Shown piece by piece: positions 4,470 to 29,400 of a stretch of 51,311 bases of DNA. The position numbers and the translations under genes are program-made. Location: the IMG/VR virus record IMGVR_UViG_3300027861_000004, positions 1 to 51,311 of that record. The stretch is one strand, 5' to 3'. Source of the DNA: a virus. Taxonomy: Duplodnaviria; Caudoviricetes. The notes beneath the pieces are model-generated. The model worked only from the letters and a program-made list of their open reading frames with translations, was not told the DNA's origin and did not search any database. How positions within the stretch are numbered: the first letter of the stretch is position 1; every line of letters begins with the position of its first letter.

Positions 4470-4820
4470 TTAGATATACTTATCTATATTTTCTTCATAT
4501 GGAATAAGCCTACCTGTTTTTATTGCATGTTTAATTAGTGGGATAAGTCTCAGTTTTTGTTCTTCCGTATAACAAAAGTTATCTGCTCTTATATTATTCT
4601 GTAATGCAATCACATCAACCATTTCGAAATACTCACACATTTTATCATAACGTGAACGTCTATACTCATCGGTTTGAGATGATTCCCCTGAGTCCGAGAC
4701 AGTAATGGAATGTTCAACAGCAAGAGGCAAAGTAGGGAGAAAAGCCTCTTTTATAGAACTACTGCTCGGACTCTTTTGGGAATAAGTCTTGTTTTTCATA
4801 CCTGTCAAAAGAGAGAACAT
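4470..4820 (-). CDS. Hypothetical protein
   Basis: Fills the gap between rusA and yopX, overlapping rusA. Confidence 0.6.
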   Translation of the reverse strand: MFSLLTGMKNKTYSQKSPSSSSIKEAFLPTLPLAVEHSITVSDSGESSQTDEYRRSRYDKMCEYFEMVDVIALQNNIRADNFCYTEEQKLRLIPLIKHAIKTGRLIPYEENIDKYI

Positions 4821-5368
4821 TTTTTTGTCTCCTCACTTTTAACTCTATAAACCTTGATTACTACGCCAGGTTCTTCTGTGCTATAACATTTCTTACACTG
4901 TTTAAACCCAATCACCTGTTTGTCGTCTTCCCATACGATGCCAGTCAATGCATCTTCGGTTGAACGAATGATCTTAGTTAAGTCCGGGAAAGTAGTGTGG
5001 TGTTTTGGAGCTGATGCTTTTAATTTATTACTATTAGCACCAGTCCCAAAATCACCCTTACGAAAAGGAAAGCGAAAGATATAACTACAAATCAATGGAC
5101 CTGTCAGATATTCACCATTGTATTGCTCTTTGGCTTGCCTGGCAACATCCTTCCTCCATCCGGGTAGAAATTTCCCAGACGGACGGATGTATGGCCTTGG
5201 TTTCTCAGGAAGCAAATAGTTGATGTCGATAAGTTTACCTTTATGCTTGGTTATCTTATTGATAAGTTCAGGCGTAATCTCTGTTTTGACTTTAGTTGTA
5301 CAAGCAACAAAAGAACCGCCAGGGGCAGCTTTACCTTTGACAAACATTTCAAATATTTTCACAAGCAT
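4805..5368 (-). CDS. rusA: RusA-family Holliday junction resolvase
   Basis: PDLTKIIRSTEDALTGIVWEDDKQV catalytic motif. Confidence 0.9.
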   Translation of the reverse strand: MLVKIFEMFVKGKAAPGGSFVACTTKVKTEITPELINKITKHKGKLIDINYLLPEKPRPYIRPSGKFLPGWRKDVARQAKEQYNGEYLTGPLICSYIFRFPFRKGDFGTGANSNKLKASAPKHHTTFPDLTKIIRSTEDALTGIVWEDDKQVIGFKQCKKCYSTEEPGVVIKVYRVKSEETKKCSLF

Positions 5369-5405: not shown

Positions 5406-6986
5406 TTATTTCTTTTTTGCTTTCTTTGTACCATCGGCATTAAGCTCTTTCCAGCTTTTAGGCTCTTGGTACTCTTCTTTGGCGTCGCCTACCCAGCCTG
5501 CCAGATCGATATTGAATAAAGTCGAGATATCTTTCATCCGGCTAATTCCATCTTTCGGGAACTGTGTTATTGGTCCGTTGTATTTCATCCACTCGAGGAA
5601 AGGCTCTTTGATCAGATTGAAAACATCAACCTTAATCTTTGTTCCAATCTCAGGAGTCAGTGGCAGGCCATCTTCGCCGATTGCTTTCGTTATCTTATTG
5701 AATTTAGTGCCATTTCCCCATCTTGAGGTACTGACACATGCGATAAGATACATAATCGTAAAGATTTGACCTTTTGTTTGTATTAAACCGATATCCCAAT
5801 TCTCATTAAGAAATTCATGCAATTTGTCATTAACAAAAGTGTGTCGTTTGTTAGCCAACAATGCACGACGTTCTTTAAGCGGTTTTGGCAATGAACCTTT
5901 ATCAGTTTCAGTTGCATCTCCGGACTTTTTAGATGTAGATGATTTCGGGCCTGCTATCCAGATTAGCTTTCCAAGTGACTTACCATTCAAGATCATAACA
6001 GGAATAGTATTTTTATCTGATTTCTTTTTCTTGGTATACTGATGTGGTTCAAGTATGCCACCAAATGTATGTTGCAACTGACGAGTTTCTGCATGAGTTG
6101 CCTGACCATTGACCCCAATTTTAATTTCTGGATAATGTTCTTTATGTGCGTCAATGAAGCCTTTTATCAAGACAATCATTTTTCGTGTCCAGCACTCTTT
6201 ATTGAGACATAAAGCCTTATGAGTTTTCACATCATCTGCAAACAGATTTGCCTTTGATCCTGAATGGGTCAAACAGTCCACACAAGGGGTCATTTTGCCG
6301 TGTTCGTCTTCATACTTGAACTTATGGTCGAACGGAGCGTTTTCGATCACATGCTCCTCAGCTTCGCAAATTCGTTTAAATTCTTTGAAGTCATGGAACT
6401 GCCAACCAGTAATACTTTCGTTGATACGATCCTGCACCTCAAAACTCAACTTAGAAAGAATTTCAAGATGTGGAAGTGTAGGTTCAACTTCTTCGTCCTT
6501 AAAGTCTTTCAACCATGACTTTGAGATATTGTCAACGATATTGGTTCGTACAGCGATTCCTTTGGGTGTCATATTCAATGCTAGCCCTGCAGCTTCATGG
6601 TCACCGTCAAATGCTTCAAGCACAACCTTAACGGAATCAGCCTCTTCAAAGATAGTCAAGTTTTCTCTGAAGTGATTCTCGAGGTGTGTAATCTTAGCTA
6701 TCTCTCCCATTGGAGTGTCTTCTGGGTATATGATCGCTGGGATAAGTTTCTTTTGAGCAAGTTTAGAAGCAAACAGTCTTCTACTTCCTACGCAAAGATC
6801 GAAATCCTCTTTAACGTTTTCGTCTCTGTTTGTTCTTACTGCTATCGGAACAGCAACGCCACTAACGCCAATGCTTTCAGAAAGCTCTTTGATGCCTATC
6901 GATTTTGAGGTTAGCTCACCTCTAGGATTATTTATAACCCTAATACTATCTACTGGTATCTTTGATAAAATTTTCTGCTCAGACAT
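5406..6986 (-). CDS. ParB/RepB/Spo0J-family protein with long C-terminal extension
   Basis: NPRG..IKELSESI...GVAVPIAVR...GSRRLFAS...ENHFRENLTIFEEA; Cys cluster (CVDC...CLNKEC); start 6986 has an AAAGGA SD. Confidence 0.85.
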   Translation of the reverse strand: MSEQKILSKIPVDSIRVINNPRGELTSKSIGIKELSESIGVSGVAVPIAVRTNRDENVKEDFDLCVGSRRLFASKLAQKKLIPAIIYPEDTPMGEIAKITHLENHFRENLTIFEEADSVKVVLEAFDGDHEAAGLALNMTPKGIAVRTNIVDNISKSWLKDFKDEEVEPTLPHLEILSKLSFEVQDRINESITGWQFHDFKEFKRICEAEEHVIENAPFDHKFKYEDEHGKMTPCVDCLTHSGSKANLFADDVKTHKALCLNKECWTRKMIVLIKGFIDAHKEHYPEIKIGVNGQATHAETRQLQHTFGGILEPHQYTKKKKSDKNTIPVMILNGKSLGKLIWIAGPKSSTSKKSGDATETDKGSLPKPLKERRALLANKRHTFVNDKLHEFLNENWDIGLIQTKGQIFTIMYLIACVSTSRWGNGTKFNKITKAIGEDGLPLTPEIGTKIKVDVFNLIKEPFLEWMKYNGPITQFPKDGISRMKDISTLFNIDLAGWVGDAKEEYQEPKSWKELNADGTKKAKKK

Positions 6987-7002
6987 TCTTTTCCTTTCGG
7001 TT

Positions 7003-8364
7003 TCAATCGGGTATCTCCCAATCAGGTTCATCTAATTCGTTTTCATTTACAGGATTGCAAAACTTAAACTCTTCTGCTAAGTAAGTAAGTTTACATATCC
7101 CACATTCACCTTGTCGATGTTTTGCTATAATTACTTCTGCTTCACCATCAAGCACTGCATTGAGGACTTCACGTTCTCTTTTGTAATCCCCTCGGTGCAA
7201 CAGCAATACGTTATAAGCGTCCTGCTCAAGACTCCCAGACTCTCGGAGATCTGTAAGCTTAGGACGAGTAACCTTTCTGTTCTCTGACTCTCTGTTTAAT
7301 TGTGCTAAAGCAAAGATATGAACGTTGAGTTCTTTACAGGTAGCAAGTAACGTCCGGCTTATTTCCGATACTTCTTCCTGTCTACTTGTCTTGCCATCGC
7401 ATGTCATCAACTGTAGGTAATCTATGAAGATGATCTTAACATCATTTTTTATCTTCATTAGTTTTGCCGCAGTTTTGAATGCTGCAAGTTTCATAGCAGG
7501 AGTGTCATCTATGTAAAGATTTAAACCAGCAATCATTTCTTCACATTCCTGTATGAACTTTAATTGTTCATCAATGAAATGACTTTTCCTTAGTTTTTTT
7601 AAACTAAACCCTGTCTTTGCTGATAGCAATCTTTCAAGTAGTCCATGCCTGTCCATCTCAAGCGAAAAGAATCCTACTGGATAGTCTTGTGCAATGTAAT
7701 CAGCGATATTCAATGCAAGTGTTGACTTTCCCATTGAAGGACGTGCAGCAAGAATTGTATATTCGCCAGGGAACAGTCCGTCGAATTTTTCGTCGATGCT
7801 GTCAAGCCCAGTCACGATAGCACCTTCGGCCTGTTTCCTTATCTCACTGAATAAGCATCTTGCCTGAACTTTGATGTCAGTCGTTTTAGCACTCAGGTCT
7901 AAGTCTGTTATTTTCTCAGCAGCAACAATAAACTTAGAACATTTATCTGTAGCAGATAGCGTAGGATCTTTTATGAATTGACCAAGTTTCTTATATACGT
8001 TATGTGCTTTACGTAAACGATAACAGTCAAGTATCTTGTCAGCGTAATACTCAAACGATGCTTCATTCCTGAAACAGTCAATTATCTTTTTAACTGATTC
8101 TATTTTAACTTTTTCCCATTTCCCATGTTCGACTAATAAGTATTTCAACTTAACTAAGTCTACTGGTTCGCCACTTTCGACTTTGTTTTCTTTCCAAAGT
8201 TTCACAATCCCTTTGTATAGCAACTTATAGTTTGGGTATCCAAAGTGCTTTGGTTGGATTTTAGAGATAACTTTTTCTATCAATGATTGATCACTTAGCA
8301 AAATAGCTATGAAAGCTTTTTCGCTGTCTTCGTCAAGTAATCCAATATTTTCAGCAGTTGACAT
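7003..8364 (-). CDS. dnaB: Replicative DNA helicase, DnaB family
   Basis: AARPSMGKS, FFSLEM, IFIDYLQL, LAQLNR, DLRESGSLEQDA, IAKHRQG. Confidence 0.97.
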   Translation of the reverse strand: MSTAENIGLLDEDSEKAFIAILLSDQSLIEKVISKIQPKHFGYPNYKLLYKGIVKLWKENKVESGEPVDLVKLKYLLVEHGKWEKVKIESVKKIIDCFRNEASFEYYADKILDCYRLRKAHNVYKKLGQFIKDPTLSATDKCSKFIVAAEKITDLDLSAKTTDIKVQARCLFSEIRKQAEGAIVTGLDSIDEKFDGLFPGEYTILAARPSMGKSTLALNIADYIAQDYPVGFFSLEMDRHGLLERLLSAKTGFSLKKLRKSHFIDEQLKFIQECEEMIAGLNLYIDDTPAMKLAAFKTAAKLMKIKNDVKIIFIDYLQLMTCDGKTSRQEEVSEISRTLLATCKELNVHIFALAQLNRESENRKVTRPKLTDLRESGSLEQDAYNVLLLHRGDYKREREVLNAVLDGEAEVIIAKHRQGECGICKLTYLAEEFKFCNPVNENELDEPDWEIPD

Positions 8365-12123: not shown

Positions 12124-13025
12124 TATTTTCCTTTTGGTGAATTATATAGATTGTAAAATTCATTGAGCAAACGAAACCCCTCAAGGTCACGTTCATAAAA
12201 TGGAGTGTAGTCTTTGTAATTACAACGACATGAAACTTTGTCGATTCGTAATACTCCATTACATATTGGTATAGGCAGTTTCTTTCCAGCTTTCAATCCA
12301 CTCAAATAAGCTCGAGCATCGCCAGCATCTTCCAGACAAGTCTGTTCTACATCTTCAAAGTAGGCATGCTTATAGGCCGCTGTCTGCATTCCATAATCAG
12401 CACTATACTGCTTGCTTGTCTTAATGTCAACAAGAGCCTTTACTCGGATCTTACGAAACTCTTTGGTTTCTTTATTGTCGTCACCTTTTAACCAGAAAGC
12501 ATTAAGGACACAAGCGATATCCATCCTGCCTTTGTAGGAAGTATCGTTTGTAACGAGTTTTTCAGTAGCAAGAACCTGAACTTCATGTTTAACGCACCAC
12601 GCTCTGAAGTTAGCCTTGATCTTGATTCTTCTAAACTCTTCGTCTGCAAGACTGTCTTCGTCAATTTCTATAGGCTCAGTACTCGCTGTGCCGGCGATTA
12701 GAGCTTTTAGGTATGCTTCGCAGTCATTATGTATTAAAGTCCCTAGATCAGTCGCCTGCTTGCTCCTGTCCTTGTACTCATACTTAGCAACTTCACCTTG
12801 CAATACAAATTCGTTCTGAAGTCTTTTAAGATATCCGGACTTAGATTCCCCTTTTTCAGGTAATCCAAAATCAAGGATAAACTCTTCGAGATTCTCAACG
12901 GCACAATCGGCAGCCCATTGTTTTAAGAATGGAATGTCAAGCAAACTGAGGATTGTCGTCACTGATGGCAGGAATTTACCTTTATGCTTATACCATCGTG
13001 GTTTGTCAGTTCCGAAAACGATCAT
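12123..13025 (-). CDS. PD-(D/E)xK exonuclease (recombination partner of ERF)
   Basis: LPSVTTIL, GTLIH, E, YKGRMD, VDIKTS, QTAAY motifs. Confidence 0.88.
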   Translation of the reverse strand: MIVFGTDKPRWYKHKGKFLPSVTTILSLLDIPFLKQWAADCAVENLEEFILDFGLPEKGESKSGYLKRLQNEFVLQGEVAKYEYKDRSKQATDLGTLIHNDCEAYLKALIAGTASTEPIEIDEDSLADEEFRRIKIKANFRAWCVKHEVQVLATEKLVTNDTSYKGRMDIACVLNAFWLKGDDNKETKEFRKIRVKALVDIKTSKQYSADYGMQTAAYKHAYFEDVEQTCLEDAGDARAYLSGLKAGKKLPIPICNGVLRIDKVSCRCNYKDYTPFYERDLEGFRLLNEFYNLYNSPKGK

Positions 13026-13233
13026 AATATTGTTCTTCCTTTACTGTTTCTCTGATTACTTCAAGTTCGCCCTTGTCTAGCATGTTGTAGATATTGATAT
13101 CGCCTTCGTTGAAAATGTCGTCAATTATGACTGTGCCTGAAGGCAATATCCTACCAACAACCTTAACTTTAATCAAGTCTTCGCTTGGAAGTTGTGTCAT
13201 TGTTTCTATTACGTATTCCTGAAATCTACTCAT
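13006..13233 (-). CDS. Hypothetical protein
   Basis: Acidic 75-aa ORF overlapping the exonuclease start. Confidence 0.65.
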   Translation of the reverse strand: MSRFQEYVIETMTQLPSEDLIKVKVVGRILPSGTVIIDDIFNEGDINIYNMLDKGELEVIRETVKEEQYYDRFRN

Positions 13234-13237
13234 AGTG

Positions 13238-14200
13238 TTATACCGTCAATAATTGAAGAGCATTGTCCTTAAGTTTCTTCGCAGAACCAAACATCACGCT
13301 ATCCATGCGTGCCAGGTCTTTAGATTTTCCCGAAGTAACACGGAAATTAGAATGATGGTCGGCAAATTCTGTTACAGCGTTATAAGCAGCCCATCGAGTA
13401 TTACGAAAGTCACGATGACCAGTCCCGCGATGGAATAGATTTACAATCTTTTCGCGTTTCTTTTTCGTTTTCGGTCCGACATGATTTTCTTTTTTGTCTT
13501 TCTCGGAAACAGGTACGATAGCTTCGGCAAGGTTAGTCATTTCACCAGTTGAGTATGGAGCGTCAAGCAGTTTGTTAAATGTCTCTTCGAGCTGCCTGTA
13601 ATAAACCTCGGCAGTTCCAAGTATCATCCTGCCTTGCCTGATACCATCTTGGTAGTTCTTAGAATGACGGATATTGAACGATGCTTTCCTGTCAAGTCCC
13701 ATCATCCCGTTTGTGCATATCTGTCTATAAGCGTATAGCTCTCCGATCAGTCCCATGCCACCATCATGTCCAGTACGCAAGAACATCCATTTGCTGATAG
13801 CATCGCCACCGATATTGAAATTATCGCCAAGCTGTGCGGCAAGGAAGACTCTGGATCCGTATGCGAATCCACCGTTAGGAAGTTGACCTGCACATCTGAA
13901 TGTGGCTTGACCTTCTTCTACGAGATGATCGCAAAATCCAAATACTTCTGAGTTCTGTATTGGCTGATAGCTCTTGCTCACAATCCCAAGCACATCACTC
14001 GTTCCGGACTTGATGACAGCTCTTTGTCGAGGTATCTTTTTCCCTACGATTGGAATGCCGTCTATCTTCCTGCTACTCACTAAATGCATTGGGGCAAGCT
14101 CAACTGTATAATTCAGTCCGGCTTGTTTCATTGCATCTGAAGCTGTCTTAGCTCCATCAATCGCTACTCCCATGTTCCGCCATGGTTTCTTTCTCTGCAT
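13238..14200 (-). CDS. DUF932-family phage/plasmid protein
   Basis: PW..MG..AGLNY.V, LGIVS..YQPIQN.E.F.F, GHDG, RQICTN, IRH, TRWAAYNAVTEFADH; start 14200 has a GAAAGGA SD. Confidence 0.88.
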   Translation of the reverse strand: MQRKKPWRNMGVAIDGAKTASDAMKQAGLNYTVELAPMHLVSSRKIDGIPIVGKKIPRQRAVIKSGTSDVLGIVSKSYQPIQNSEVFGFCDHLVEEGQATFRCAGQLPNGGFAYGSRVFLAAQLGDNFNIGGDAISKWMFLRTGHDGGMGLIGELYAYRQICTNGMMGLDRKASFNIRHSKNYQDGIRQGRMILGTAEVYYRQLEETFNKLLDAPYSTGEMTNLAEAIVPVSEKDKKENHVGPKTKKKREKIVNLFHRGTGHRDFRNTRWAAYNAVTEFADHHSNFRVTSGKSKDLARMDSVMFGSAKKLKDNALQLLTV

Positions 14201-14537
14201 CGTCTTTCCTTTCAGTGTTATGGTGTTCATTCCAATAATTATAATATTCAATTAGTTTTGATTCTACTGTACTAATTGCTGTTTGTAATCTTTTTTTTGA
14301 CTGACGATTTACCTCAAGTATCGTTGCATTGAATCCAGTAAATGCACCAAACTCTCTTATGCTTACAGATCCTTCGTTTCTAATCTTAACAGGTACTACG
14401 TTTAATCTGTAAGAACGAGGTATTTGCTTATAGGTTGCATAATTCGTTCCACCTTTATGAAACGTAAGTGCAAATTCTAATACACGTCCTTGCTTATCGT
14501 CAGGAATTGGTATCTGTTTCTTCCATAGAGCCGCCAT
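14157..14537 (-). CDS. Hypothetical protein
   Basis: ORF overlapping both neighbours. Confidence 0.65.
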   Translation of the reverse strand: MAALWKKQIPIPDDKQGRVLEFALTFHKGGTNYATYKQIPRSYRLNVVPVKIRNEGSVSIREFGAFTGFNATILEVNRQSKKRLQTAISTVESKLIEYYNYWNEHHNTERKDDAEKETMAEHGSSD

Positions 14538-14901
14538 TGTCTTTCCCTTCTGGCAATACGCCTATTAACATTGTTGGTGGTTTTGGCAGTACAACCCTGC
14601 CCGTTGGTTTCCATATATGCAAACAGTCTGGATGATTATTTACATAATCTTTCTTTGCAGGGTGATATTGCACGCAAGTCTCGTCTTCACCCCAGAACGC
14701 ATTCTTAAAGACACACATATCTTTCCAGGCTGGAGGTCCGTTATTTCCAAGCAGTACAATCGAAAGATGCTCCCATCCTTTACCCCATGAAAATATAGCG
14801 GTAAAGTATTGGCTAACAAATGCAACCCCATCTTTGCCTTCACCTGCAGGCTCAAAACCTAATTCTTTAATTCGTTTTTTGATGTCTTTTAATGTTCTCA
14901 T
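14500..14901 (-). CDS. Conserved phage protein (WEH.S...P.W..MC..K..FW...YHP....YVN.H..CLHIW family)
   Basis: Recognisable His-rich motif set; start 14901 has a GAAAGGA SD. Confidence 0.75.
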   Translation of the reverse strand: MRTLKDIKKRIKELGFEPAGEGKDGVAFVSQYFTAIFSWGKGWEHLSIVLLGNNGPPAWKDMCVFKNAFWGEDETCVQYHPAKKDYVNNHPDCLHIWKPTGRVVLPKPPTMLIGVLPEGKDNGGSMEETDTNS

Positions 14902-14970
14902 AATATTCCTTTCATAAAAAAACTGAACGCAAACCATCCTAGTCTACGCTCAGCCTATTGTAGCTACTAA

Positions 14971-15013
14971 GAAAAATATATTTAACCTTGCACTAAAGAA
15001 AGGTTAAATATAT
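14971..15013 (-). terminator. Perfect 14-bp hairpin closing the RAMP-array transcript
   Basis: ATATATTTAACCTT (14976-14989) / AAGGTTAAATATAT (15000-15013), 10-nt loop, then TTTT on the minus strand. Confidence 0.65.
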
Positions 15014-15034
15014 CATCTATTCCTGTTGCTTTTT

Positions 15035-15679
15035 TCTGCATGTCACTAAACTGCAATGCCCGAGCTAAACGATGCGTTTGTATTCCAGGCTAATCCATGG
15101 CCAAACAATTCGGCTCTGTTCCTTAGCAGTTCTTCGCGTTTCCTTACTATACCCCAGCAATTCTATTCCGAGCTATACCCCCGCAAGTCTACACTTCGCT
15201 ATTCCTCTGCAATTCTATTCTTCGCTTAGCTAGGCCACGGCTTCACTGTTCCTAGCGTTTCCATTTCTTTGCTCTTCTTACCCCAGCTTCGCCATTGCTA
15301 CTCACATACAGGCATTGCCCCGCCCTGGCTTTGTTTGGCACCGATGCTCTCCGCTGTCGCATTTCATTTCACTGCTTTGCCGTCGCTCATCAATACCGCT
15401 TTCAGCTATTGCCGTTCATTTCAATTCACTGCTCTGCCATTGCTCTGCCTCGCTGCTACTCGCTTTGCCATCGCATTGCTCGTGCTTAGCTTTCCTTCTC
15501 ATTGCCGCCGCTAGTCAAGTCCGAACCTCTCGTCGCCTACGCCATTCTGTGTTCCGTCTCGCCTTTCCGTTGCCTTTCCGTTCTTAGCCTCGCCTGCTCG
15601 ACGTTCCGCCTTGCCTATCCTACGCACTTCTATCCAAGCCTATCTGTTGCTTTGCTGTCAGCCGATCGCTCCGCCTAGC
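15035..15679 (-). ncRNA. Non-coding array of degenerate pentamers NG(C/A/T)-NN in 5n+1 nt units; putative guide-RNA array for the RAMP protein
   Basis: Begins at the RAMP stop codon. Example units on the minus strand: GGA.AT AGC.GA AGT.GT AGA.CT TGC.GGG (15205-15180) and GGT.AT AGC.TC GGA.AT AGA.AT TGC.TGG (15179-15154). No minus-strand ORF of 60 aa or more. Confidence 0.75.
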
Positions 15680-16348
15680 CTATGCTGTTTCTGCAATGAC
15701 CGAGCATTTGTACGTAAAACGACCACAACCTGAATTACGCCACTGTCCGAAACCACGGAGTTTTCCATAGTCGAGACATTGCTTTATAAACTTTTCCAGG
15801 TTCTTGTTCAGAAGAAGGATATCAAACTCCATCGTAGCACCGTCCGGGATCGCTTCGCTCCTTGCAAGAGCTATTCGTTCACCTCTCATTGTTTCTGCAC
15901 GTAAAGGACGTTCAATGTAAGTGATATCGTCCGGAGTATAGTCTGCAAAGAACACACGCCTGTCAGTAATAAATACAAGCTGATCGATTGTTTTCTTGAT
16001 AAGATACTGAGTGCATCGGATCTTTTTCAGTTCTTCCTTTGTGTAGATTCCAGCAGCGATAAGAGCTTGGCCGGCATCTTTGAAGAAACCTTTGATCTGA
16101 TAGTCATACATGAACAGCTTATTATCGATCCGAGGGAAATAAGTTGTCTTCTTTTTCATTTCTGCTTCATCGACAATGCCATCATCAATGTCTTGAGACA
16201 GTTTGCCAATTACTCCTGCTTCTTCTGCCTTTTTATCTTCCGGACAATTCTTTGACATATGATCCGTAAAGATGTCTGGGTTTCCGCTTGTTGTGCCTAA
16301 GATAGGCTCAATGAATTTAACCGATACTTTCAATTTTAACGCTGCCAT
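15680..16348 (-). CDS. Stand-alone Cas7-like RAMP-superfamily protein
   Basis: N-terminal strand + PILG (LKVSVKFIEPILGT), YQIKGFFKDA helix, SEAIPDGATMEFDI strand, C-terminal G-rich loop RGFGQWRNSGCGRF. Confidence 0.8.
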   Translation of the reverse strand: MAALKLKVSVKFIEPILGTTSGNPDIFTDHMSKNCPEDKKAEEAGVIGKLSQDIDDGIVDEAEMKKKTTYFPRIDNKLFMYDYQIKGFFKDAGQALIAAGIYTKEELKKIRCTQYLIKKTIDQLVFITDRRVFFADYTPDDITYIERPLRAETMRGERIALARSEAIPDGATMEFDILLLNKNLEKFIKQCLDYGKLRGFGQWRNSGCGRFTYKCSVIAETA

Positions 16349-16490
16349 ACTAATTCCCTTTCAAAAAGTTAATTTAATTTATTATTCAGCTCAAGGCTGG
16401 ACGAGAGTGCCTGCATTCTACGGTCGGACACCTCACCATCATGATTCTCTCTGCCAATCGTCCTGTCCTTGAAAGGTCTGCTTTAATGAA

Positions 16491-16563
16491 CTGTCAAGGT
16501 GGGACTTGAACCCACATCTGGTCATTATACGTTTCACATGCTCTAGGCTTGAGCTACTTGACA
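16491..16563 (-). ncRNA. tRNA-like RNA with non-canonical anticodon arm (C4/CI-type antisense candidate)
   Basis: Acceptor stem TGTCAAG/CTTGACA, D stem GCTC/GAGC, T arm GTGGG-TTCAAGT-CCCAC; no D-loop GG, no canonical anticodon stem, no encoded CCA. Confidence 0.75.
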
Positions 16564-16641
16564 ACACTACTTTCTGTAAACAATCCACGCATCTGATCCG
16601 CAGTAGTCGCGTTCGGGCTTTAGAGGCCGGATGCTAGAATT

Positions 16642-16656
16642 TTAATAACTTCTCAT
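16642..16656 (-). CDS. Minigene MRSY* behind a perfect Shine-Dalgarno
   Basis: AAAGGAGGTG (16670-16661) TATT ATG AGA AGT TAT TAA. Confidence 0.45.
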   Translation of the reverse strand: MRSY

Positions 16657-16950
16657 AATACACCTCCTTTCCTGTATTAACAATATCGGATAGGTGCTTT
16701 CTGCAAAACACTAACGTCAACAGGGTCATGTGGAAACATCACATTGTCAAGCCCCTAGCTATGGCCAGTACCACTATCCATGAGGTCCAAGAGTCCTTCT
16801 TGCACTCTCGCTTATACGTAACCCCATTCTTCTACTTAATCCGTAATTGATGACTCACTGAACAGGGAACGCAGGGTACTCGCTTGTCCCGGGGTGCAAG
16901 CCAGCCATGTCGATGTGTCTCAGCCTTGAGCCATTGTCATACGTCTTAAG

Positions 16951-17910
16951 CTATCCGAATATCTTGTCAATGATGCTTGTCACATACATTGAATCTATCT
17001 TAAAGTCTGGGTCTTTCTCCAGCCTGTCCTTGCAATAAGTAATTATCTGATTGAAGTAGGCCGCATCAACACCCGTAAGCTGATCCTGCAGTACAGTGAG
17101 GTCAGTAAGGTCCAGGTCAGACAACTGCATACACATCTTGAGTATCTGTCCGGCATTGATATACCAACCTCGTTTGATAAACTTTCGCATCCTGATTATT
17201 GAGCATAACGGATACAAAGATCCTGTGTACTGCAGGTTCTTAGTCACAAGACTTTCAAGGGCTGCTGCATTAAGTACAAGTTTACCAGTTCCGTGAATTT
17301 TAGGGTTTGTTTCTGGCAACCAGTAATTCGTACAATGCACGTAGTCATAGTTCTTATGAACTTCTTCAGGACTGCCGTAGAACCTGATGACGATCTGAAC
17401 GCTATTGCTCAAGGTTATAGCGTTTGATGATAAGAAGATAGGACGATAGTTTTCGCCTTTTTCTTTTAGCATCTCTGCGACAGGTTGTTCGTCTGCTTTA
17501 TCGATAGTCTTGACAAGATCGTCAACGTATGTTGCACCTTGACTTTCTTCAACCTGTTCAAAGTATCTGTATCCACCAGCTTCAGACTCACTAACGACAC
17601 CCTTAGATTTGATATAAATATCAACTCTTTTGGTTTTAGTGTCGAATCTTGCCAGTGGCTTAATCTCAGTTTTAGGATGAAGCCTGTTAAATTCATTGCA
17701 GTAGTAATGTGCTACTGCCCTTGCAGTCTCTATGTTAGTGACATAATAATCATAGTCATTAACCTTTTGAGTCTCAAGCAAAGACGTTATAGCACCGCCT
17801 GTGACGAAAGAGTTTTTACGCATCAGTTCTCTTACGCTTTCGTCTTTGATTGACTGTATGAACTCATTATGTTTTCTTTGTAATGTCCTGCACGTTATCC
17901 TTCTGTTCAT
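16951..17910 (-). CDS. Pol-beta-superfamily nucleotidyltransferase-like phage protein
   Basis: FVTGGAITSLL...VNDYDYY (GG..DxD), YDYVHC, SIIRMRKFIKRGW. Confidence 0.72.
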   Translation of the reverse strand: MNRRITCRTLQRKHNEFIQSIKDESVRELMRKNSFVTGGAITSLLETQKVNDYDYYVTNIETARAVAHYYCNEFNRLHPKTEIKPLARFDTKTKRVDIYIKSKGVVSESEAGGYRYFEQVEESQGATYVDDLVKTIDKADEQPVAEMLKEKGENYRPIFLSSNAITLSNSVQIVIRFYGSPEEVHKNYDYVHCTNYWLPETNPKIHGTGKLVLNAAALESLVTKNLQYTGSLYPLCSIIRMRKFIKRGWYINAGQILKMCMQLSDLDLTDLTVLQDQLTGVDAAYFNQIITYCKDRLEKDPDFKIDSMYVTSIIDKIFG

Positions 17911-18160
17911 TTTCACGTTCCTTTTTTAAGAAATATCTAATAGCATTTAATTGTTTATCATACTCTTCATCGCTTAATGTTCTGCATTTTGTTTCTTTGG
18001 CCTGAGTACCTTTGTGTCTGTCTTTAATGCATACAAGGCATAGTCTGTCTCCGTGTGATCTCATGCCAAACCAAAACCATAATTGACCATCATACCAAAT
18101 CAACTCAGGATTTCTTTTCAGGAATAACATACTTTCTCTCCTTGCACCATTTTCTGACAT
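17867..18160 (-). CDS. Hypothetical protein
   Basis: Overlapping operon ORF; start uncertain. Confidence 0.55.
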   Translation of the reverse strand: MSENGARRESMLFLKRNPELIWYDGQLWFWFGMRSHGDRLCLVCIKDRHKGTQAKETKCRTLSDEEYDKQLNAIRYFLKKERENEQKDNVQDITKKT

Positions 18161-23495: not shown

Positions 23496-26400
23496 TCATT
23501 TTGAGCGAAATGCTCGTTTTTTTGTCATTGTACGGCGTTTTTTCTGCCATTGCTTTTCATATGTTGTACTTGTACTCATCCCTGAAGCATGTGTTAAGGC
23601 ATCAAAAGCATCGATCTCACCAGTAAGTAAACCGACAAGCTGTTGAATCTGAATAGGAATCATGCCTTTTGTCGAATCAATAGCAAAAGCAGGTATCTGC
23701 CCTATATTGATCGGACCACTCTTGTTCTTGCTATTCCACGATACTATCTTGTTTGCCGCCTGTGGATCACCAGAGATACCCATAAGCTCACCAAAGGACG
23801 TAAACCGCCTGTGGGCATAATCAGTGCCTTTCATGGCGTTAATCGCAAATCTCGTCGATACAGAGGCCTTATGAGAGAAACTAGCCCCGGGTTTCATTAT
23901 CCACTTGGCAGGATCCTTAAAGTGACCAATAATCGAGAAATACTTCCGAATGTCCTTTTTGCCACCCAAAGCCTTGTATATCGGAGTAACGTCAACATCG
24001 AGCCATTTCAGATTTCCAGCGTCCCAGGCCTTTTTAAATCTGTCATCATCGTCATCGAATCCAGCCATCAGGAGATTAAATGCGATAGTCGCTGCGACGC
24101 CCTTGCCAATGATCCGTGCCCAGAACAATCGATGCACCTTACCACGTTCACCTGCAGCAAGCGATTGATACATACTTCTGAAATTGCTGATAGTCCAGTC
24201 CGGACCGAGGAAGGCAAGCCTTTGAACATGAACAGCCGTAGGGTTCGCACCCTCTCTTTCGCGGTTTAGACCACCAAAGTCATTATTCATAAGGTTTGCA
24301 ACTTCACCATATATCTCTTCAAGAGTCATCTCTCCGGACTCAAGTTTCGCTCGGTTCGCCTCAACACGTTTTCTTGCCTCGATAATACCAGCCTGCATCT
24401 TCAAAGCAGGTCCGACGTACCCAAACAGGTATTGTTCGTATTGACGTTTTATATTATACAGTTTTTTCCACACCATGTTCCCACTGTTGGCTTTTTCCAA
24501 CAACCACTTATCCGAAGCAGACGGGTCGAAATCAGCTACCCTACCGACCGTCATGCCAGCACGGATAAGATTCCTGGCCTCTGGTGTGAGTTTTCGTATT
24601 GCCTCCATCCCCTGCCGTTGCATCTCGCGAAGATTCCACCCACGTTTGGAGAATGGAGTGTTTTTATCAAAGAATATAGGAACAGAACCGCCTAACCAGA
24701 AAGATCTATAATAGGCCTGCTGATGGAAAAAACTGGTTAAAAGCAGTATATTCTTTGTAATGGCATTGAATTGTGTCAGGAAGTCCACGACCGGCATACC
24801 CTGGAGCTTCGACCTGCGAAAACTATTGTTCAGGTTGTTAGCGATCACTGGGGCTGCATAGAGCGTGTTTGCCACGTAAAGCTGACCGGTTGGGGATATA
24901 AATGCCCTGCCAATGCCAAGGGAATCAGGGTTTATATCAGATGGTCTATGGAGGCCTGACTTGCGATTTCCGTAAGGCTGGTCATATTTAACACGTACAT
25001 ACCACTCTCCATCGATCTCAAAGGAACGCTCAATCTGTCCGGACACATGCTTAGGCTTTCCAGTAGCCTTATCAACACCCACCTTGACGTCTGCATGAGC
25101 ATCTTTCAGCTTGCCCTTTTTATTCCACTTGACGATAGCAGGATGATTGATAGGCTTAAAGCCTCTGCTGCCGGCCTCGGTAATATCATCAGTAATCATG
25201 TTGTTTGTCTCGAGAGCATCCATCAGGAGGTGAGCACGCCCACTGAGAGCAAGCTGATCCATCCCAATCTTCATTGAGGTCGTAACATCGTCCGTCTTGA
25301 GGTTCTTGCCATACGACCAACCCTCGAGGATACCACCCTCTTCGAACTGACGAAGTTTCGTTACAGGAGGATTCAACCCAAACGTCTTAAATGCAGGCTT
25401 TTTAGACTTGGTACCAAAATCCCACGCACGATGAATATAGCTCTTGTACTGCGGAAGATCCTTAAACCACGAATCAGACTTGAACTGATTAGCGAATTTG
25501 TCCTGTATCTTGACAATATCATCAGCAACTTTCTTGAACTTCGAGAACTGAGGATCAGTCTTGATACGTTCAGCAAGATCAACAAGCCCACGCTTAGTAA
25601 GATTCAGCTTGTTATAAAACTTGCTAAATGAGTCCGGATAGTTTTGCATGTCAATGTAAACCATCATGGCGGTTGATACGTCTTTCATGGTGACTGAGCT
25701 TTTATCGCCGTTGAGTTTCGTATAATCAAACGTGTCGGTTAGAGAGTAACGTTTCCGGCCGATCGCATTCGCAAGTGCTTTCTGAACACTATGTAGTGAG
25801 TTGTTTATCTCTTGACGGTAAAGCTCGAGTTCACCATAAAACGAATCCAAAAGCTCACGCCCCAGGATCATTTCGCTATCAGCAAAGTTTCCGTAACCTG
25901 CTTGCTGTAATATTTTGTCGAGATGCGGCTTAACACGACGTTTCCATGCAGCCGGATCCATTGTTTTCTTCTGAAAATTGATATTAGGACTAGATGAATC
26001 GAAAGTTCCTTTGTTGGATATTGCAGATTTAATCTGAGATGACTCAAAAACTACCATTTCATAAGAGCCAACCGCTTCTTCGCCAACAATCACTCCATCA
26101 TACCCTTCGGCCTCTAAAGCCTTCAGAAACTCAGGAGATTTATTGAACAAACTAGGGTGTTGCATGATGTGCTTCGGATTCTGAATAGAAAGATAGACTG
26201 GCTTGATTGCAGATCCTGGGGGCTGTTCTAATTCGTCATTAAAGGTATAATCCTCTGCATGGTCAGGGTCATAAGTAAAATGAAAACCCATATCTCCGTA
26301 TCTTTCAATGCCTTGTTCCCATGTGGCAGGGTCGAATTCGTCGAAATTCGCTGTTTTAGTTCCATGGTATACAACAAGTGGATTGCCTTGCCTATCAACG

Positions 26401-29400
26401 ATTTTACTGTTACGGAACCACTCCTTGAATTGAGGTGTGGATATCTGTTTTTTCTGAAAGAATGGCTGAGATGGGTTTGGCGTGAAGTTTAGATCACCTT
26501 TGTTATTAGCTGCAAGATTATTGTCAGCATTAAACTCAGCACGGCTTTCATAAGTATCAGCCTCTTTGTGAAGTATCTCAGCTTTCGTAGCACCAGTAAT
26601 GAATGCCTTAGCAATAGCAGCACGAATCCTTAGCAAATTATCAACAGCACCATAGACGTTAGCTTCGGCTCTATGGGCGGCGACAGTGATCTCTGGCCTA
26701 TTTAAACTCCCACTGTCAATAACCCTATCAAACTGCCTGAACTTGCCATGTATTTCGTCAATCATCCGACTAGTGCCTTCAGCAGCATGACCAATAAAAG
26801 CAACGGGATTTGTCGTTACAGGACTACGCTCTATAATATTACGCCAGAACTTCGTATTATTCGCATTGTGCATGATATAATTAGGAAGTAATTCACCAAG
26901 CGTATTATTCTGTTTTGCGTTCTGATAGAGGTAGTCAAAGCGATTATCCATAAGGCGTAACATCTCGACAAGATTGTCATAACCATGTTTGTCGATATGC
27001 TCAAGCCTGTGCGTTATTTCATGTATAGTAATCGATTGCAATATCTCCGCTTGGCTTACATCGCCTTTTGATGTTTCATCACTAAGAAAGACAAGTCCCA
27101 TGCCGCCAGCCATAGCAATAGTCCCATCGGTCCCAGATAAAACAGCACCTCTAGCACCAACTCTTGCGGTAGTTTTGAAAGGATTGTCGTCAGCAAGTGT
27201 TTCACGATTAAGGCTATATAGAACTAGCTTGTCACCAAAGACACGATTAACGAGACTTGCAAGGCGTTGCTCAAGCCCAGTCTTTGGACTTCTAAAAGTA
27301 ACTGCATCGGCAGCAGCTTTTAAATGTGTCTCGAAATTATCATCGCCAACGAAATGCTGACCTCGAGTAAATGCAACAGCAGTGGCGAAACCGCGAGACT
27401 CGAGGAAGTCGCTTTGTGCTTTACTAAGGTTATTATTAAACCCTTTCTTGGGATGTATCTGGAACGCCTTATCAAACTTCTTTTGGACCTGCGGAGGCAA
27501 GCTCGGAAGTTCCTCTTTGAGCTGTTCAGCATATTCAACTTCAAACTGAGGGTTTGTGATACGTGCAGGGTCTAACTCTTTGTTCTTTTCAGTAACAAGT
27601 TCATCGCCAAACTCATTAACTTTCATAAAGTCACGGTCAACAACGTCACCTCTTTGGCGAGCCTCGTACTGTTCGTCAAGAGTTAGCTTGTTAAAGTCCT
27701 GCACATCCTGTCCGCTAAGTGCCTTATCGCTTGTTTCGTTAATGATCTGACGAAGACGTTTGATCTCGACAGAATATGGATCCGTAGTCTGCTCCCACCC
27801 TTTTCCAAACTCATCGTTCATCTTTTCCCAGGTACGCTCAGTTAAACGAGAAACCTGACCAAGGCGATTTAAGCCTGTACTCCGATACCATTTTCTAATG
27901 TCACGTGGAGTAGCCCAAGCAACACCAGTTCGTTCGCCCTGTACTCGAGCATGAGGACTTGCAAAGGCACGTTGCTTATCTGCAGGCTTTGGAGCAAAAG
28001 CAGACTTCTCACGCTGATGTGCATCTTTGCCAGCTTGATTAGCAATGGCATTGCTTAACCATGCACGTATGTTCTTGGCACGCTTAGAGGCTGCAGGGTG
28101 TTCTTTATACCACTGTGCAGACTTATTGTATATATCACTCCAATCCCTGCCAAACGTCTTATCTGCAGCATCAAACACTTTTCTGAGAGCATAGCCGGCG
28201 GCGTCCCTCGAAAGACCGTGGTTCTCCATAACCCTGTCTTCGATCGCCATATAAGTCTTTGCCGGCATCTGCTCTGCAGGAGGTCGATCCTCAACCTCAC
28301 GTTGATTGAATACATCAGTAGTGCCTGTCTCGCTTGGTCTGCCTTTTATGCGTCTGTCAGTCTGGTCGAAATGCCCAAACTCACCAGCTTCATCCATATC
28401 AACTGTAACAAGTGGATCTGTCTTGCCAAGGTCTATCTTAGCCTTGCGAGCTTTCACCTGCTGCTGTGTCGATTCTGCCGTTCGTGCCAATGCTGTATCC
28501 GAGGGAGATCTTTGGCTTGAATCCGTTCGGGTGAAGATATCCCCGCTCTCTACGGACTTCTCTACTGCGACTGGATTCGTAGTCCGGAGTATCCCTGCTT
28601 TCAACCCGTCGTATATGTCTTTTAGTTTCTGCCATGCCTTACCAGCCTTTCCTTCTCTTTGGCGACTCTCAAAGTAATATGCAGGATCCTCAGCGACGCC
28701 CTGTTCACCTTTGCGAGTTTTCTGTATTGTTGTTAATTCTTCTTCGGTCATCAATGTTTCAGCGAAGTGGTAAACCTCATGACTAAGCGTGCTCCTGTCA
28801 GCTTCAAAACCGTCAAGGTCGACGATAGCGTCAACTTTCATCGTATCGCCAGTCTCCATGTTAGTCACTTCAAACACACTACCCCGAGTAGTCCTGCCAG
28901 CAGCAACCTCGTCTATCCCAATCTCAGCCTGTTCTTCTTCCGAAAGCTCAATTCCCTCATCATGAATATTGAACGCAACAGTTTTATCGCCAGGGAACTG
29001 CACTACAAATTGATCCGGACTTGTCTGCTCAACAGTAGCACCCATCTTTTCGTAACGTGCCACGAAATCGTCCATGGTGACGCCAGCACTCGTACCCGTA
29101 TGTCTTGCCGCCCCAGTCTCAACATTGGCATATTCGCCGACAGCAATATGCTCAGAGACTTTCTTGCCAAACGCATCAGCAACTCCACTTGACGGAGCTG
29201 TACTGTTTCCGTATATGTCAGTAACGTCCTGAATCGAAGCATCAATAACAGCACCAGCCTGTTCTTTGGTCAGGTTAGAACTGTTCATAATATCGTTGAC
29301 GATCGATTGACGAACAGAAGTGCCGCCTTTTATCTTGTTAATGACACGACCTGCACCACCAACGCCACCAGTAGCAAGCGTAGTGGTAAGAGCAAGTAAA

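What the first reader, a model, noticed from the sequence alone, without database searches (positions are those of the whole stretch)
15035..15270. Higher-order grammar in the array: units of 26/31/36 nt (5n+1) starting GG(A/C/T) and closed by a 6-mer
Seen, consecutive on the minus strand: GGAAA CGCTA GGAAC AGTGA AGCCGT (26); GGCCT AGCTA AGCGA AGAAT AGAAT TGCAGA (31); GGAAT AGCGA AGTGT AGACT TGCGGG (26); GGTAT AGCTC GGAAT AGAAT TGCTGG (26); GGTAT AGTAA GGAAA CGCGA AGAAC TGCTAA (31); GGAAC AGAGC CGAAT TGTTT GGCCAT (26); a 36-mer; GGCAT TGCAG TTTAG TGACA TGCAGA (26). Every unit closes with NGC-NNN followed by GG. Near-duplicate units also occur upstream (15414-15438 vs 15356-15381). Inference: the +1 phase shift marks processing sites or filament boundaries that delimit individual guides, and the array grows by unit duplication and divergence rather than spacer acquisition.
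Basis: partly seen in the sequence, partly recalled or inferred. Interest (0 to 1): 0.8.

Follow-up and report, generated by a model that had tools for sequence, protein, structure and literature searches.

The report
Punctuated pentamer guide-RNA array in phage
Right behind a small Cas7-like gene, a marine phage carries about 650 bases of five-base repeats broken every 26 or 31 bases by one extra base, most likely marking off some twenty very short guide RNAs of the recently described VIPR kind.

Summary
On the minus strand, 15262-15035 reads exactly as the eight listed units (26/31/26/26/31/26/36/26 nt). The same grammar runs through the whole 657-nt array, 15679-15023, which has 17 clean units of 26 or 31 nt. 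It beats dinucleotide shuffles and permutations of the repeat order.

It is a family trait. All 71 arrays of at least 200 nt next to homologues of the adjacent 222-aa gene have a period of 5.11-5.22 nt, not 5.0. Their units end in a conserved six-base closer, GCAAH+G.

The gene encodes a Cas7-like RAMP distantly alignable to the SUSP1 Vipr protein. The locus therefore fits the VIPR systems described in 2026 preprints, probably their tail-less "staggered vrRNA array" form, which was mentioned but not tested.

My best reading is that each 5n+1 unit is one short guide of 5-7 Vipr-binding repeats, and that the extra base is the junction or processing point. Conserved punctuation and whole-unit differences between related phages support this. 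No RNA ends and no targets could be obtained.

The idea that the array grows by duplication is poorly supported. It is a new member of a known kind and of moderate interest.

The parts
15680..16348 (-). Gene for a 222-aa Cas7-like RAMP (Vipr-like protein). Its stop codon directly abuts the first repeat of the array.
   Evidence: The ORF is and has no Pfam or PHROG family. There are 5702 homologues with E<=0.001. The AlphaFold model has pLDDT 83 and pTM 0.77. The best PDB folds are type VII Cas7, Csm3 and Csf2, with E down to 1.7e-8. hhalign against the SUSP1 Vipr family gives E 1.8e-4 and probability 48% over 174 columns. The C-terminal G-rich loop is visible.
15023..15679 (-). Whole pentamer-repeat array. 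About 125 repeats of the form G-(C/A/T)-N-N-N, with one extra base every 5 or 6 repeats, giving a period of 5.18 nt.
   Evidence: No Rfam family matches. A 300-nt part folds no better than its shuffles, z -0.22.
15480..15619 (-). Five consecutive clean units of 26, 26, 31, 31 and 26 nt.
   Evidence: Parse.
15324..15468 (-). Five consecutive clean units of 31, 31, 26, 26 and 31 nt.
   Evidence: Parse; sequence.
15096..15292 (-). Seven consecutive clean units of 31, 26, 31, 26, 26, 31 and 26 nt. Six of them are units listed in the finding.
   Evidence: Parse. Tandem Repeats Finder also reports a 26-nt period at 15147-15226, with 3.1 copies and 75% matches.
15035..15262 (-).
   Evidence: read by eye; the steps are.
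14975..15014 (-). A+U-rich hairpin followed by a U run, just after the last repeat. It is a possible intrinsic terminator of the vipr-array transcript.
   Evidence: Folding 14960-15040 as RNA gives -20.7 kcal/mol, z -3.7, and 0 of 200 shuffles fold as well. The consensus scanner did not list it. Terminator-like sites are not enriched after arrays across the family.

Best explanation
The array is the guide-RNA locus of a VIPR-like system. It is transcribed with the Cas7-like gene as one purine-rich RNA.

Proposed binding (inferred):
- Each five-base repeat binds one protomer of the RAMP through an invariant G and a following C, or A/T in this phage.
- The remaining bases are left free to specify a target.

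Proposed role of the extra base (inferred):
- The array is not one long guide. It is a head-to-tail string of about twenty short, tail-less guides, each of 5 to 7 repeats (26, 31 or 36 nt).
- Each guide starts with a full GG+pyrimidine-type motif and ends with a conserved closing repeat plus one extra base.
- That extra base breaks the register of the protein filament and is where neighbouring guides are separated, either by cleavage or simply as the end of one filament segment and the start of the next.
- By analogy with the characterised VIPR systems, each unit would direct the filament to a short DNA site in a competing phage or mobile element and silence it.

Shown here: the grammar, its conservation, its link to the gene, the fold of the protein, and the modular turnover of units.
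Inferred: transcription, protein binding, processing at the junction, and DNA targeting.
For: (1) Grammar in the window. There are 17 clean units of 26 or 31 nt and a period of 5.18 nt, far beyond shuffles and token permutations.

(2) Family-wide link to the gene.
- All 80 fetched viral loci that encode a homologue (39-46% identity) have a periodic stretch beside the gene.
- The detector fired in 0 of 9220 background windows.
- All 71 arrays of at least 200 nt have a best period of 5.11-5.22, with median power 14.6 there against 0.8 at exactly 5.00.
- With equal penalties, six-base steps outnumber four-base steps 1025 to 201.

(3) Regular unit size. In 227 of 320 intervals there are 4-6 pentamers between closers, with a mode of 5, which is a 31-nt unit.

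(4) Punctuation. At 240 closers the consensus is G 99%, C 95%, A 73%, A 84%, A/T/C, G 95%, then G 100% and C 74%. Internal pentamers have G 95%, C 52-78%, and three positions with information of about 0-0.2 bit. Among orthologous units the closer also changes less than internal repeats.

(5) Modularity. In 38 related arrays, shared units keep their order and arrays differ by whole units. In alignments made without knowledge of the units, indel lengths peak at 26 and 31 nt and at their sums (57, 62, 67, 88, 93). Their classes mod 5 fall as 149, 98 and 66 for remainders 1, 2 and 3.

(6) RNA level. 98 of 98 array regions score higher on the gene strand, 91 lie downstream of the gene, and the purine fraction is 0.65. 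The array starts at the stop codon and is unstructured.

(7) Protein. It has a Cas7-like fold.
- In the profile alignment to the SUSP1 Vipr family, the Trp and Arg are kept (W203, R204). The structure preprint says these hold the second G and the pyrimidine.
- The Asp said to read the first G aligns to an invariant Gln.
- This fits a repeat in which only the second G and the C are fixed. It is an inference.

(8) Literature.
- The VIPR preprint (Results, Discussion and part of Methods read) describes Vipr RAMPs with pentamer vrRNAs, alternative YNNNG and NNNNG repeats, and untested 'staggered arrays'.
- The structure preprint reports six protomers per helical turn without DNA and five with DNA. 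These are the sizes of the commonest units here.

(9) Control. In 80 loci of the SUSP1-type family the periodic windows have a median period of 5.01 (76 of 80 loci). The 5n+1 grammar is therefore specific to the window's family.
Against: - No RNA evidence. No listed sequencing run is RNA, so ends, processing and even transcription are untested.
- No targets were found. A local search of 398 units against 0.7 Mb under 12 reading rules stayed near its controls.
- A unit with 4-5 variable repeats would specify only about 8-15 bases. That is far fewer than the 9-16 repeats of the characterised vrRNAs.
- The structure preprint treats 7-protomer filaments as incomplete intermediates.
- There is no 3' tail or pseudoknot, which caps the characterised vrRNAs.
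- Homology to Vipr is only moderate: hhalign probability 48%, and cross-family HMM E-values of 2e-4 or weaker in a set of 241 proteins.
- In this window the closers are less conserved than the family consensus. 20 of 24 start with GC and 18 of 24 end in G.
- Unit boundaries in the token comparison come from my own parser. The unit-blind alignments are noisy: only 79 of 266 indel events have equal offsets to a boundary at both ends.
- Terminator-like sites after arrays are no commoner on the gene strand than on the other strand (15 against 16 of 31).
- I could not see the figure of the 'staggered arrays', so equating them with this grammar is a guess.
Confidence: 0.6

Rival explanations
1. One continuous ribonucleoprotein. 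The whole 650-nt RNA is coated by a single long filament, and the extra base about once per helical turn is a register correction or flexible joint, not a boundary between guides. The array would then cover long stretches of DNA or act as a scaffold.
For: The period is phase-coherent over the whole array. Units of 5-7 repeats match the 5-6 protomers per turn reported for Vipr filaments. The structure preprint notes natural vrRNAs of up to 30 repeats and says that RNA length sets filament length. There are no tails, hairpins or ribozymes between units.
Against: In a helical filament all protomers are equivalent, so no once-per-turn special base is needed. Unit length varies (26/31/36/41), which does not suit a geometric constraint. 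The closing repeat has fixed rather than variable bases. Units are gained and lost singly between related phages.
Confidence: 0.2
2. RNA decoy or sponge. The array does not guide anything. It titrates a host RNA-binding protein, or host Cas7-type effector subunits, as RNA anti-CRISPRs do, and the phage RAMP helps to package it.
For: The RNA is a long, unstructured, purine-rich repeat next to a RAMP gene in a phage. RNA-based anti-CRISPRs are known (search listing only).
Against: A sponge needs no hypervariable positions, yet three of five positions are nearly random and differ between related phages. It also needs no whole-unit turnover. The gene-array pair is conserved in 80 of 80 loci from very different habitats, which points to a self-contained system.
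Confidence: 0.07
3. A DNA-level element. This would be phased protein-binding sites or a structural DNA signal with a repeat of half a helical turn (5.18 x 2 = 10.4 bp), for example an origin, partition site or packaging site.
For: The period is close to half the B-DNA helical repeat, and GC is a palindromic dinucleotide. A ParB-like gene lies in the window at 5406-7031.
Against: There is strong strand asymmetry, always on the strand of the RAMP gene (98 of 98; purines 65%). The non-integer period resolves into discrete five- and six-base steps with a sequence-specific closer, not a smooth 5.18 spacing. The partner is a Cas7-like, RNA-binding fold.
Confidence: 0.03
4. Chance, or a decayed tandem duplication of a 26-nt unit with no higher-order meaning.
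For: Tandem Repeats Finder reports a 26-nt repeat with 75% matches at 15147-15226. A few true duplicate units exist in the family.
Against: Shuffle and permutation tests reject chance. The same grammar is found in arrays with unrelated unit sequences from 39 non-redundant loci. Within-array units are not more alike than unrelated ones.
Confidence: 0.02

Closest known systems
VIPR systems, type II (Escherichia phage SUSP1, Pseudomonas fulva prophage): Vipr RAMP plus vrRNAs. Source: bioRxiv 10.64898/2026.04.26.720920 (Results, Discussion and the first part of Methods read) and 10.64898/2026.04.26.720927 (Results part 1 and Discussion read).
   Same: Both are phage-encoded. Both have a single small RAMP of about 200 aa with a G-rich loop, and an adjacent co-oriented array of five-base repeats with fixed scaffold bases and hypervariable bases. 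Neither has cas genes or CRISPR repeats nearby.
   Different: - SUSP1 vrRNAs are 12-14 GGY-NN repeats with a strict 5.0-nt period, followed by a structured tail of about 40-60 nt, and they are separate RNAs of about 100 nt.
- Here only one G and the next base are fixed, and three positions vary.
- Units have 5-7 repeats, there is no tail, and units abut with one extra base.
- Up to about 25 units sit in one array.
- No conserved accessory gene was found among 25 non-redundant loci.
'Staggered vrRNA arrays' of the VIPR preprint (legend of Fig. S18; figure not seen)
   Same: [quoted passage not shown] The preprint's Methods also list YNNNG and NNNNG repeats, which is the repeat seen here when read from the C.
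   Different: The legend says '1 nt overlapping', whereas I see one extra base per unit. Whether that is the same thing counted differently cannot be told without the figure. The preprint says that only the ribozyme-interspersed and single-vrRNA forms were confirmed by small-RNA sequencing. The text I read gives no unit lengths, no closing motif and no period.
Class 1 CRISPR arrays and Cas7 backbones (types I, III, IV, VII)
   Same: The protein has a Cas7-like fold. A short conserved element alternates with variable sequence. Arrays of related genomes differ by whole units. From my own knowledge, not from any call here, the number of repeats per unit (5-7) resembles the number of Cas7 subunits on a crRNA.
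   Different: - The 'repeat' here is a six-base closer rather than a repeat of more than 20 nt.
- The 'spacer' is itself periodic, with a fixed G every five bases.
- The step is five bases, not six.
- No Cas1/Cas2, Cas5, Cas6 or large subunit was seen among the neighbours examined.
Non-canonical VIPR-like arrays found by a genomic language model (bioRxiv 10.64898/2026.10.21.760802; passages only)
   Same: These are 5-nt periodic arrays beside Vipr-like folds, with repeat motifs other than GGY.
   Different: Those motifs (GAC, CAC, WGT, TGH plus NN) are reported to repeat about 10 times with period 5. The passages I read mention no 5n+1 units.

Membership tests
VIPR (Vipr protein + vrRNA) | Small single-domain RAMP with an RRM core, a thumb and a glycine-rich loop | tested here: met
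   The protein is 222 aa. The model has pLDDT 83. The best PDB folds are Cas7 of type VII, Csm3 and Csf2. A G-h-G-x5-G-h-G loop sits at the C terminus and is conserved across the family.
VIPR (Vipr protein + vrRNA) | Sequence homology to a characterised Vipr (SUSP1) | tested here: inconclusive
   Profile-profile comparison gives E 1.8e-4 and probability 48% over 174 columns, end to end. The profile against the single SUSP1 sequence gives probability 18%. Cross-family HMM hits are weak, best E 1.9e-4 in 241 sequences.
VIPR (Vipr protein + vrRNA) | Adjacent, co-oriented tandem five-base repeats with fixed scaffold bases and hypervariable bases | tested here: met
   98 of 98 array regions are on the gene strand. 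G is 95% fixed, and the three last positions carry about 0-0.2 bit.
VIPR (Vipr protein + vrRNA) | Canonical GGY/NN repeat | tested here: not met
   Internal repeats are N-G-C/A-N-N. A full GG+C occurs only at the start of each unit. The preprint allows 'a related consensus' and lists YNNNG and NNNNG repeats, so this does not exclude membership of another VIPR type.
VIPR (Vipr protein + vrRNA) | Conserved structured 3' tail capping each vrRNA (type II) | tested here: not met
   Units abut directly. There is no structure beyond shuffles and no Rfam ribozyme.
VIPR (Vipr protein + vrRNA) | Accessory vap gene next to vipr | tested here: not met
   Clustering of neighbouring ORFs in 25 non-redundant loci gave no family shared by most of them. 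The best non-Vipr real cluster is in 6 loci and is a Rha/antirepressor-type protein.
VIPR (Vipr protein + vrRNA) | Viral, non-CRISPR context | tested here: met
   The window encodes a portal, a major head protein, tail-fibre-like proteins and a DnaB-like helicase. Homologues came from the viral-contig collection. No cas families were found among the proteins scanned; not every ORF of the window was scanned.
VIPR (Vipr protein + vrRNA) | vrRNA expressed and bound by Vipr; DNA recognised through the variable bases with a skipped base | not testable with these tools
   No RNA run holds the sequence. The local target search was uninformative.
CRISPR array | Direct repeats of more than 20 nt separated by non-periodic spacers, with adaptation genes | tested here: not met
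   The only recurrent element is a six-base closer, and the spacers are themselves five-base periodic. No cas1 or cas2 was seen among the neighbours scanned.

The most novel reading that the evidence does not exclude
The 5n+1 unit is a quantum of about one helical turn of Vipr filament, and the six-base closer is a minimal 'repeat'. On this reading the array has a genuine repeat-spacer architecture at pentamer scale. More than twenty tail-less guides of only 4-6 informative repeats would be released at the extra base, without a ribozyme, a tail or a dedicated nuclease. They would be the shortest natural RNA guides known. The arrangement would also be an architectural intermediate between single tailed vrRNAs and CRISPR arrays, carried by a protein family (5702 hits) larger than the set used to define VIPR.
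Probability: 0.3. Interest if true: 0.7.

Novelty: new member of a known kind. Interest (0 to 1): 0.5.

Why it matters
VIPR was described only in 2026, and so far only the tailed, strictly five-base-periodic vrRNAs have been studied at the bench.

This locus belongs to a very large sister family that is widespread in phages of marine, sediment and gut samples (5702 proteins with E<=0.001). In that family the guide array is organised differently:
- the units are short, about the size of one filament turn;
- each unit ends in a conserved closing repeat;
- one extra base sets the register of the next unit.

The grammar gives exact, testable predictions for RNA ends. It gives a simple rule for calling individual guides in thousands of metagenomic arrays, which is needed before their targets can be predicted. 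It also raises a mechanistic question: how are tail-less guides separated, and how can 8-15 informative bases suffice?

If the units are indeed separate guides, such arrays would be compact natural templates for multiplexed targeting.

Tried and rejected
- DNA similarity to deposited phages: no match. By protein, only 4 unannotated gut-phage records matched.
- Rfam: no family in 13000-18000 except a tRNA-like hit.
- First ideas, from my own knowledge, were dropped once the family and the literature were seen. These were TRAP-like or CsrA-like protein-binding repeats, and a half-helical-turn DNA signal.
- Targets. 398 distinct units were searched against 0.7 Mb (window plus loci, arrays masked) under 12 rules: three choices of read positions times skips of 0-3. 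Hits were mostly bare 12-base seeds and at most about twice the reversed-order controls. This is uninformative.
- Coding signature of the variable triplets. TAA and TAG are depleted (observed/expected 0.62 and 0.54) but TGA is not (1.30). This is ambiguous.
- Sequencing runs: no RNA holder is listed. Three seawater-metagenome DNA runs were listed, one of which may be the source.
- Complex prediction with three copies of the protein gave no verdict, with a median score of 0.40 against a mark of 0.42. This counts neither for nor against.
- Terminators after arrays: 15 of 31 on the gene strand against 16 of 31 on the other strand. There is no enrichment.
- Offsets of indel ends to unit boundaries, in alignments made without knowledge of the units, were too noisy to use. 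Only the length spectrum was informative.
- One paper reading failed on a badly written search term and was not repeated.
- Collection-wide scans for targets were not run. They would need patterns joined from parts of units.
- Supplementary figures and data of the preprints could not be seen. They may already show this grammar.
Full report
**What is there**

On the minus strand, a noncoding stretch of about 740 nt lies between the stop codon of a 222-aa ORF (15680-16348) and the next ORF (14500-14937). It is 66% purine. Each starts with GG plus A, C or T, and each closes with NGC-NNN. Seven of the eight are followed by GG.

The signal is not local.
- Autocorrelation over the whole stretch peaks at lags 5, 10/11, 16, 21, 26, 31 and 36.
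- The Fourier spectrum has one sharp peak at 5.18 nt with power 16.4, against a median of 1.8 for 300-nt windows of the contig.
- A dynamic-programming parse that penalises four- and six-base steps equally finds 96 five-steps, 24 six-steps, 3 four-steps and 2 seven-steps in 15680-15021. It yields 17 clean units, nine of 26 nt and eight of 31 nt.

**Is it more than chance?**

The parse score is 210, against 2.5 +/- 16 (maximum 54) in 300 dinucleotide shuffles. A stricter control keeps all repeat tokens and permutes only their order. It gives 4.5 +/- 1.9 units of 26/31/36 nt (maximum 13 in 10,000 permutations), against 17 observed. The parser's weights were trained on all arrays, this one included, which slightly favours the observed score.

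**The neighbour and its family**

The 222-aa protein has no Pfam or PHROG family. It has 5702 homologues with E<=0.001 in the large protein collection, and none of the 120 listed carries a Pfam domain. Its C terminus carries a conserved glycine-rich loop of the RAMP type. An AlphaFold model built from 21 sequences has pLDDT 83 and pTM 0.77. Its best matches among solved structures are Cas7 of type VII CRISPR complexes (E 1.7e-8), Csm3 of type III and Csf2 of type IV. A sequence profile also weakly hits the type VII Cas7 (E 0.007).

The window itself is a tailed-phage genome, with a portal, a major head protein, tail-fibre-like proteins and a DnaB-like helicase. It is the whole assembly held. 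The only sequencing runs that hold it are seawater metagenome DNA.

**The grammar is a family trait**

I fetched 80 viral loci that encode homologues of 39-46% identity.
- All 80 have a periodic stretch beside the gene. The same detector fires in 0 of 9220 windows away from the arrays.
- In 78 of 80 loci the strongest 300-nt window anywhere in the locus has a period of 5.12-5.24.
- All 71 array regions of at least 200 nt have a best period between 5.11 and 5.22 (median 5.15). Their median power is 14.6 there and 0.8 at exactly 5.00.
- All 98 array regions score higher on the strand of the gene. 91 lie downstream of the gene and 7 upstream.
- Over all regions the parse gives 4553 five-steps, 1025 six-steps and 201 four-steps.

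In 39 non-redundant arrays, the number of pentamers between successive six-base steps is 4 in 63 cases, 5 in 110, 6 in 54 and 7 in 28, out of 320 intervals. The variance is 3.1, against 26 for a geometric distribution of the same mean. The units are therefore 26, 31, 36 and 41 nt, with a mode of 31.

**What the extra base looks like**

I aligned 240 six-base steps from the non-redundant arrays.
- Internal pentamers are G (95%), C (52-78%, otherwise mostly A), then three positions with almost no information.
- The closer is G (99%), C (95%), A (73%), A (84%), A/T/C, G (95%).
- The next unit begins with G (100%), C (74%), A (63%).
- So each unit ends in a repeat whose 'variable' bases are fixed, followed by one extra base. 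Only at the junction does a full GG-C motif appear.
- In the window the closers are looser: 20 of 24 start with GC and 18 of 24 end in G.
- Among orthologous units of related gut phages, the invariant G rarely changes (0.04 changes per column). The other four positions of internal repeats change equally (0.18). The closer's C-A-A changes less (0 to 0.10).

**Units behave as modules**

I wrote 38 related arrays as strings of unit identities. They share units in a conserved order and differ by presence or absence of whole units. For example, one array lacks six consecutive unit tokens that its relative has, and another has a block of seven extra ones. These boundaries come from my parser, so I also aligned 19 arrays pairwise without using them. 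Indel lengths peak at 26 nt (41 cases), 31 nt (41) and at sums such as 57, 62, 67, 88 and 93. The remainders mod 5 fall as 149, 98 and 66 for 1, 2 and 3, as expected for one, two or three units. The pairs are not independent, and the positions of indel ends were too noisy to use.

**Duplication**

Same-length units within one array are no more alike at their variable positions than units from unrelated arrays (0.308, n=366, against 0.296, n=9421). 17 of 366 pairs reach 60% identity and 5 of 366 reach 70%, three of them identical. Between arrays the figures are 1.6% and 0.5%.

**What is known**

A full-text search found three 2026 preprints on VIPR systems.

The first is 10.64898/2026.04.26.720920. 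I read its Results, Discussion, the first of four parts of Methods, and passages with the supplementary-figure legends.
- It describes phage-encoded Vipr RAMPs with vrRNAs of 9-16 YNNGG repeats plus a structured tail. The two variable bases read DNA with one skipped base.
- It describes seven types and alternative NNNGG, YNNNG and NNNNG repeats.
- It mentions 'staggered arrays with overlapping vrRNAs'. The legend says that individual vrRNAs derive from '1 nt overlapping positions' and that the end of one marks the start of the next.
- Only the ribozyme-interspersed and single-vrRNA forms were confirmed by small-RNA sequencing.

The second is 10.64898/2026.04.26.720927. I read Results part 1 and the Discussion.
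- It shows one protomer per repeat in a right-handed filament, with six protomers per turn without DNA and five with DNA.
- D177 reads the first G, W178 stacks on the second G, and R179 holds the pyrimidine.

In the third (10.64898/2026.10.15.759431), and in a language-model survey (10.64898/2026.10.21.760802), I read passages only. None of them mentions 5n+1 units.

**Is this a VIPR?**

I located the SUSP1 locus in its GenBank record. Its vrRNAs are plain GGT-NN runs with tails. I built a profile of its Vipr family.
- The profile-profile alignment with the window's family runs end to end, with E 1.8e-4 and probability 48%. This is suggestive, not proof. Cross-family HMM scores are weak.
- In that alignment, W178 and R179 correspond to the invariant W203 and R204 here. 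D177 corresponds to an invariant Gln, and the His that also reads the first G falls in a gap.
- That fits a repeat in which the second G and the C are fixed but the first G is free. This is inference.
- Read in the preprint's frame, the repeat here is the YNNNG or NNNNG kind.
- As a control, 76 of 80 loci of the SUSP1-type family have periodic 70-nt windows with a median period of 5.01. The SUSP1 vrRNAs themselves give 4.94-5.05. The non-integer period therefore belongs to the window's family, not to VIPR arrays in general.
- No accessory gene is shared by most of 25 non-redundant loci.

**How it most likely works**

Shown: a conserved gene-array pair on one strand, a Cas7-like protein, a five-base scaffold with free positions, conserved punctuation every 5-7 repeats, and unit-wise turnover.

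Inferred:
- The array is transcribed with the gene. It starts at the stop codon. In this phage it is followed by a hairpin with a U run of -20.7 kcal/mol (z -3.7), but terminator-like sites are not enriched across the family.
- The RNA is unstructured (z -0.22) and is coated by the protein, one protomer per repeat.
- Each 5n+1 unit is one short guide. The canonical GG-C at its start and the fixed closer at its end define the segment. The extra base is where register is broken and where neighbours are separated.
- The commonest unit sizes, six and five repeats, equal one turn of the published filament without and with DNA. This may be why the units have this size.

I put 0.6 on this reading and 0.2 on a single continuous filament with a once-per-turn joint. 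Smaller odds go to a decoy RNA, a DNA-level element, or chance.

**What remains open**

There are no RNA ends, no targets and no binding data. The local target search was uninformative, the coding-signature test was ambiguous, and the oligomer prediction gave no verdict. I could not see the supplementary figure that may already depict this arrangement.

**Verdict**

The locus is a new member of the recently described VIPR kind, probably of its untested 'staggered array' form. I could not find the following points in the text I was able to read: the 5.11-5.22-nt period, the 26/31/36-nt units, the conserved closer, and the unit-wise turnover.

Noticed in passing
window 16491-16563 (-): A tRNA-like element lies between the RAMP gene and the upstream ORF. 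Rfam scores it at 42 bits, above the gathering score of 29. ARAGORN calls no tRNA anywhere in the window. In the alignment the D arm and anticodon arm look atypical.
   Followed up: partly
L002 3081-3930 and 4641-5230: One GC-rich relative has long arrays on both sides of the RAMP gene, both on the gene strand. Six other array regions, in L037, L060, L065 and L078, also lie upstream of the gene.
   Followed up: partly
L019 2875-3492 (also L063, L073, L076): In four loci the array starts about 640 nt after the RAMP gene. In L019 a 205-aa ORF fills that gap; it has a weak NUMOD1 (homing-endonuclease-type) match, E 0.002, below Pfam's cut-off. The gap in the other three loci was not examined.
   Followed up: partly
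L011 2354-3130 and five related loci: In six of the loci compared, a Rha/KilAC antirepressor-type gene sits upstream of the RAMP gene. It is the only recurrent neighbour found, and it is not shared by the marine or sediment relatives.
   Followed up: partly
window 23496-30305 (-): There is a single 2269-aa ORF. All 19 ORFs of at least 250 aa in the 51.3-kb contig are on the minus strand.
   Followed up: no
window 13238-14937 (-): Directly downstream of the array lie a DUF7694 protein (145 aa), a 126-aa ORF with no family, and a DUF932 protein (337 aa). None recurs next to the array in the other loci examined.
   Followed up: partly
L071 about 4644-4880: A block of several units, about 110 nt, is duplicated almost exactly within one array. 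This is the clearest case of multi-unit duplication seen.
   Followed up: partly
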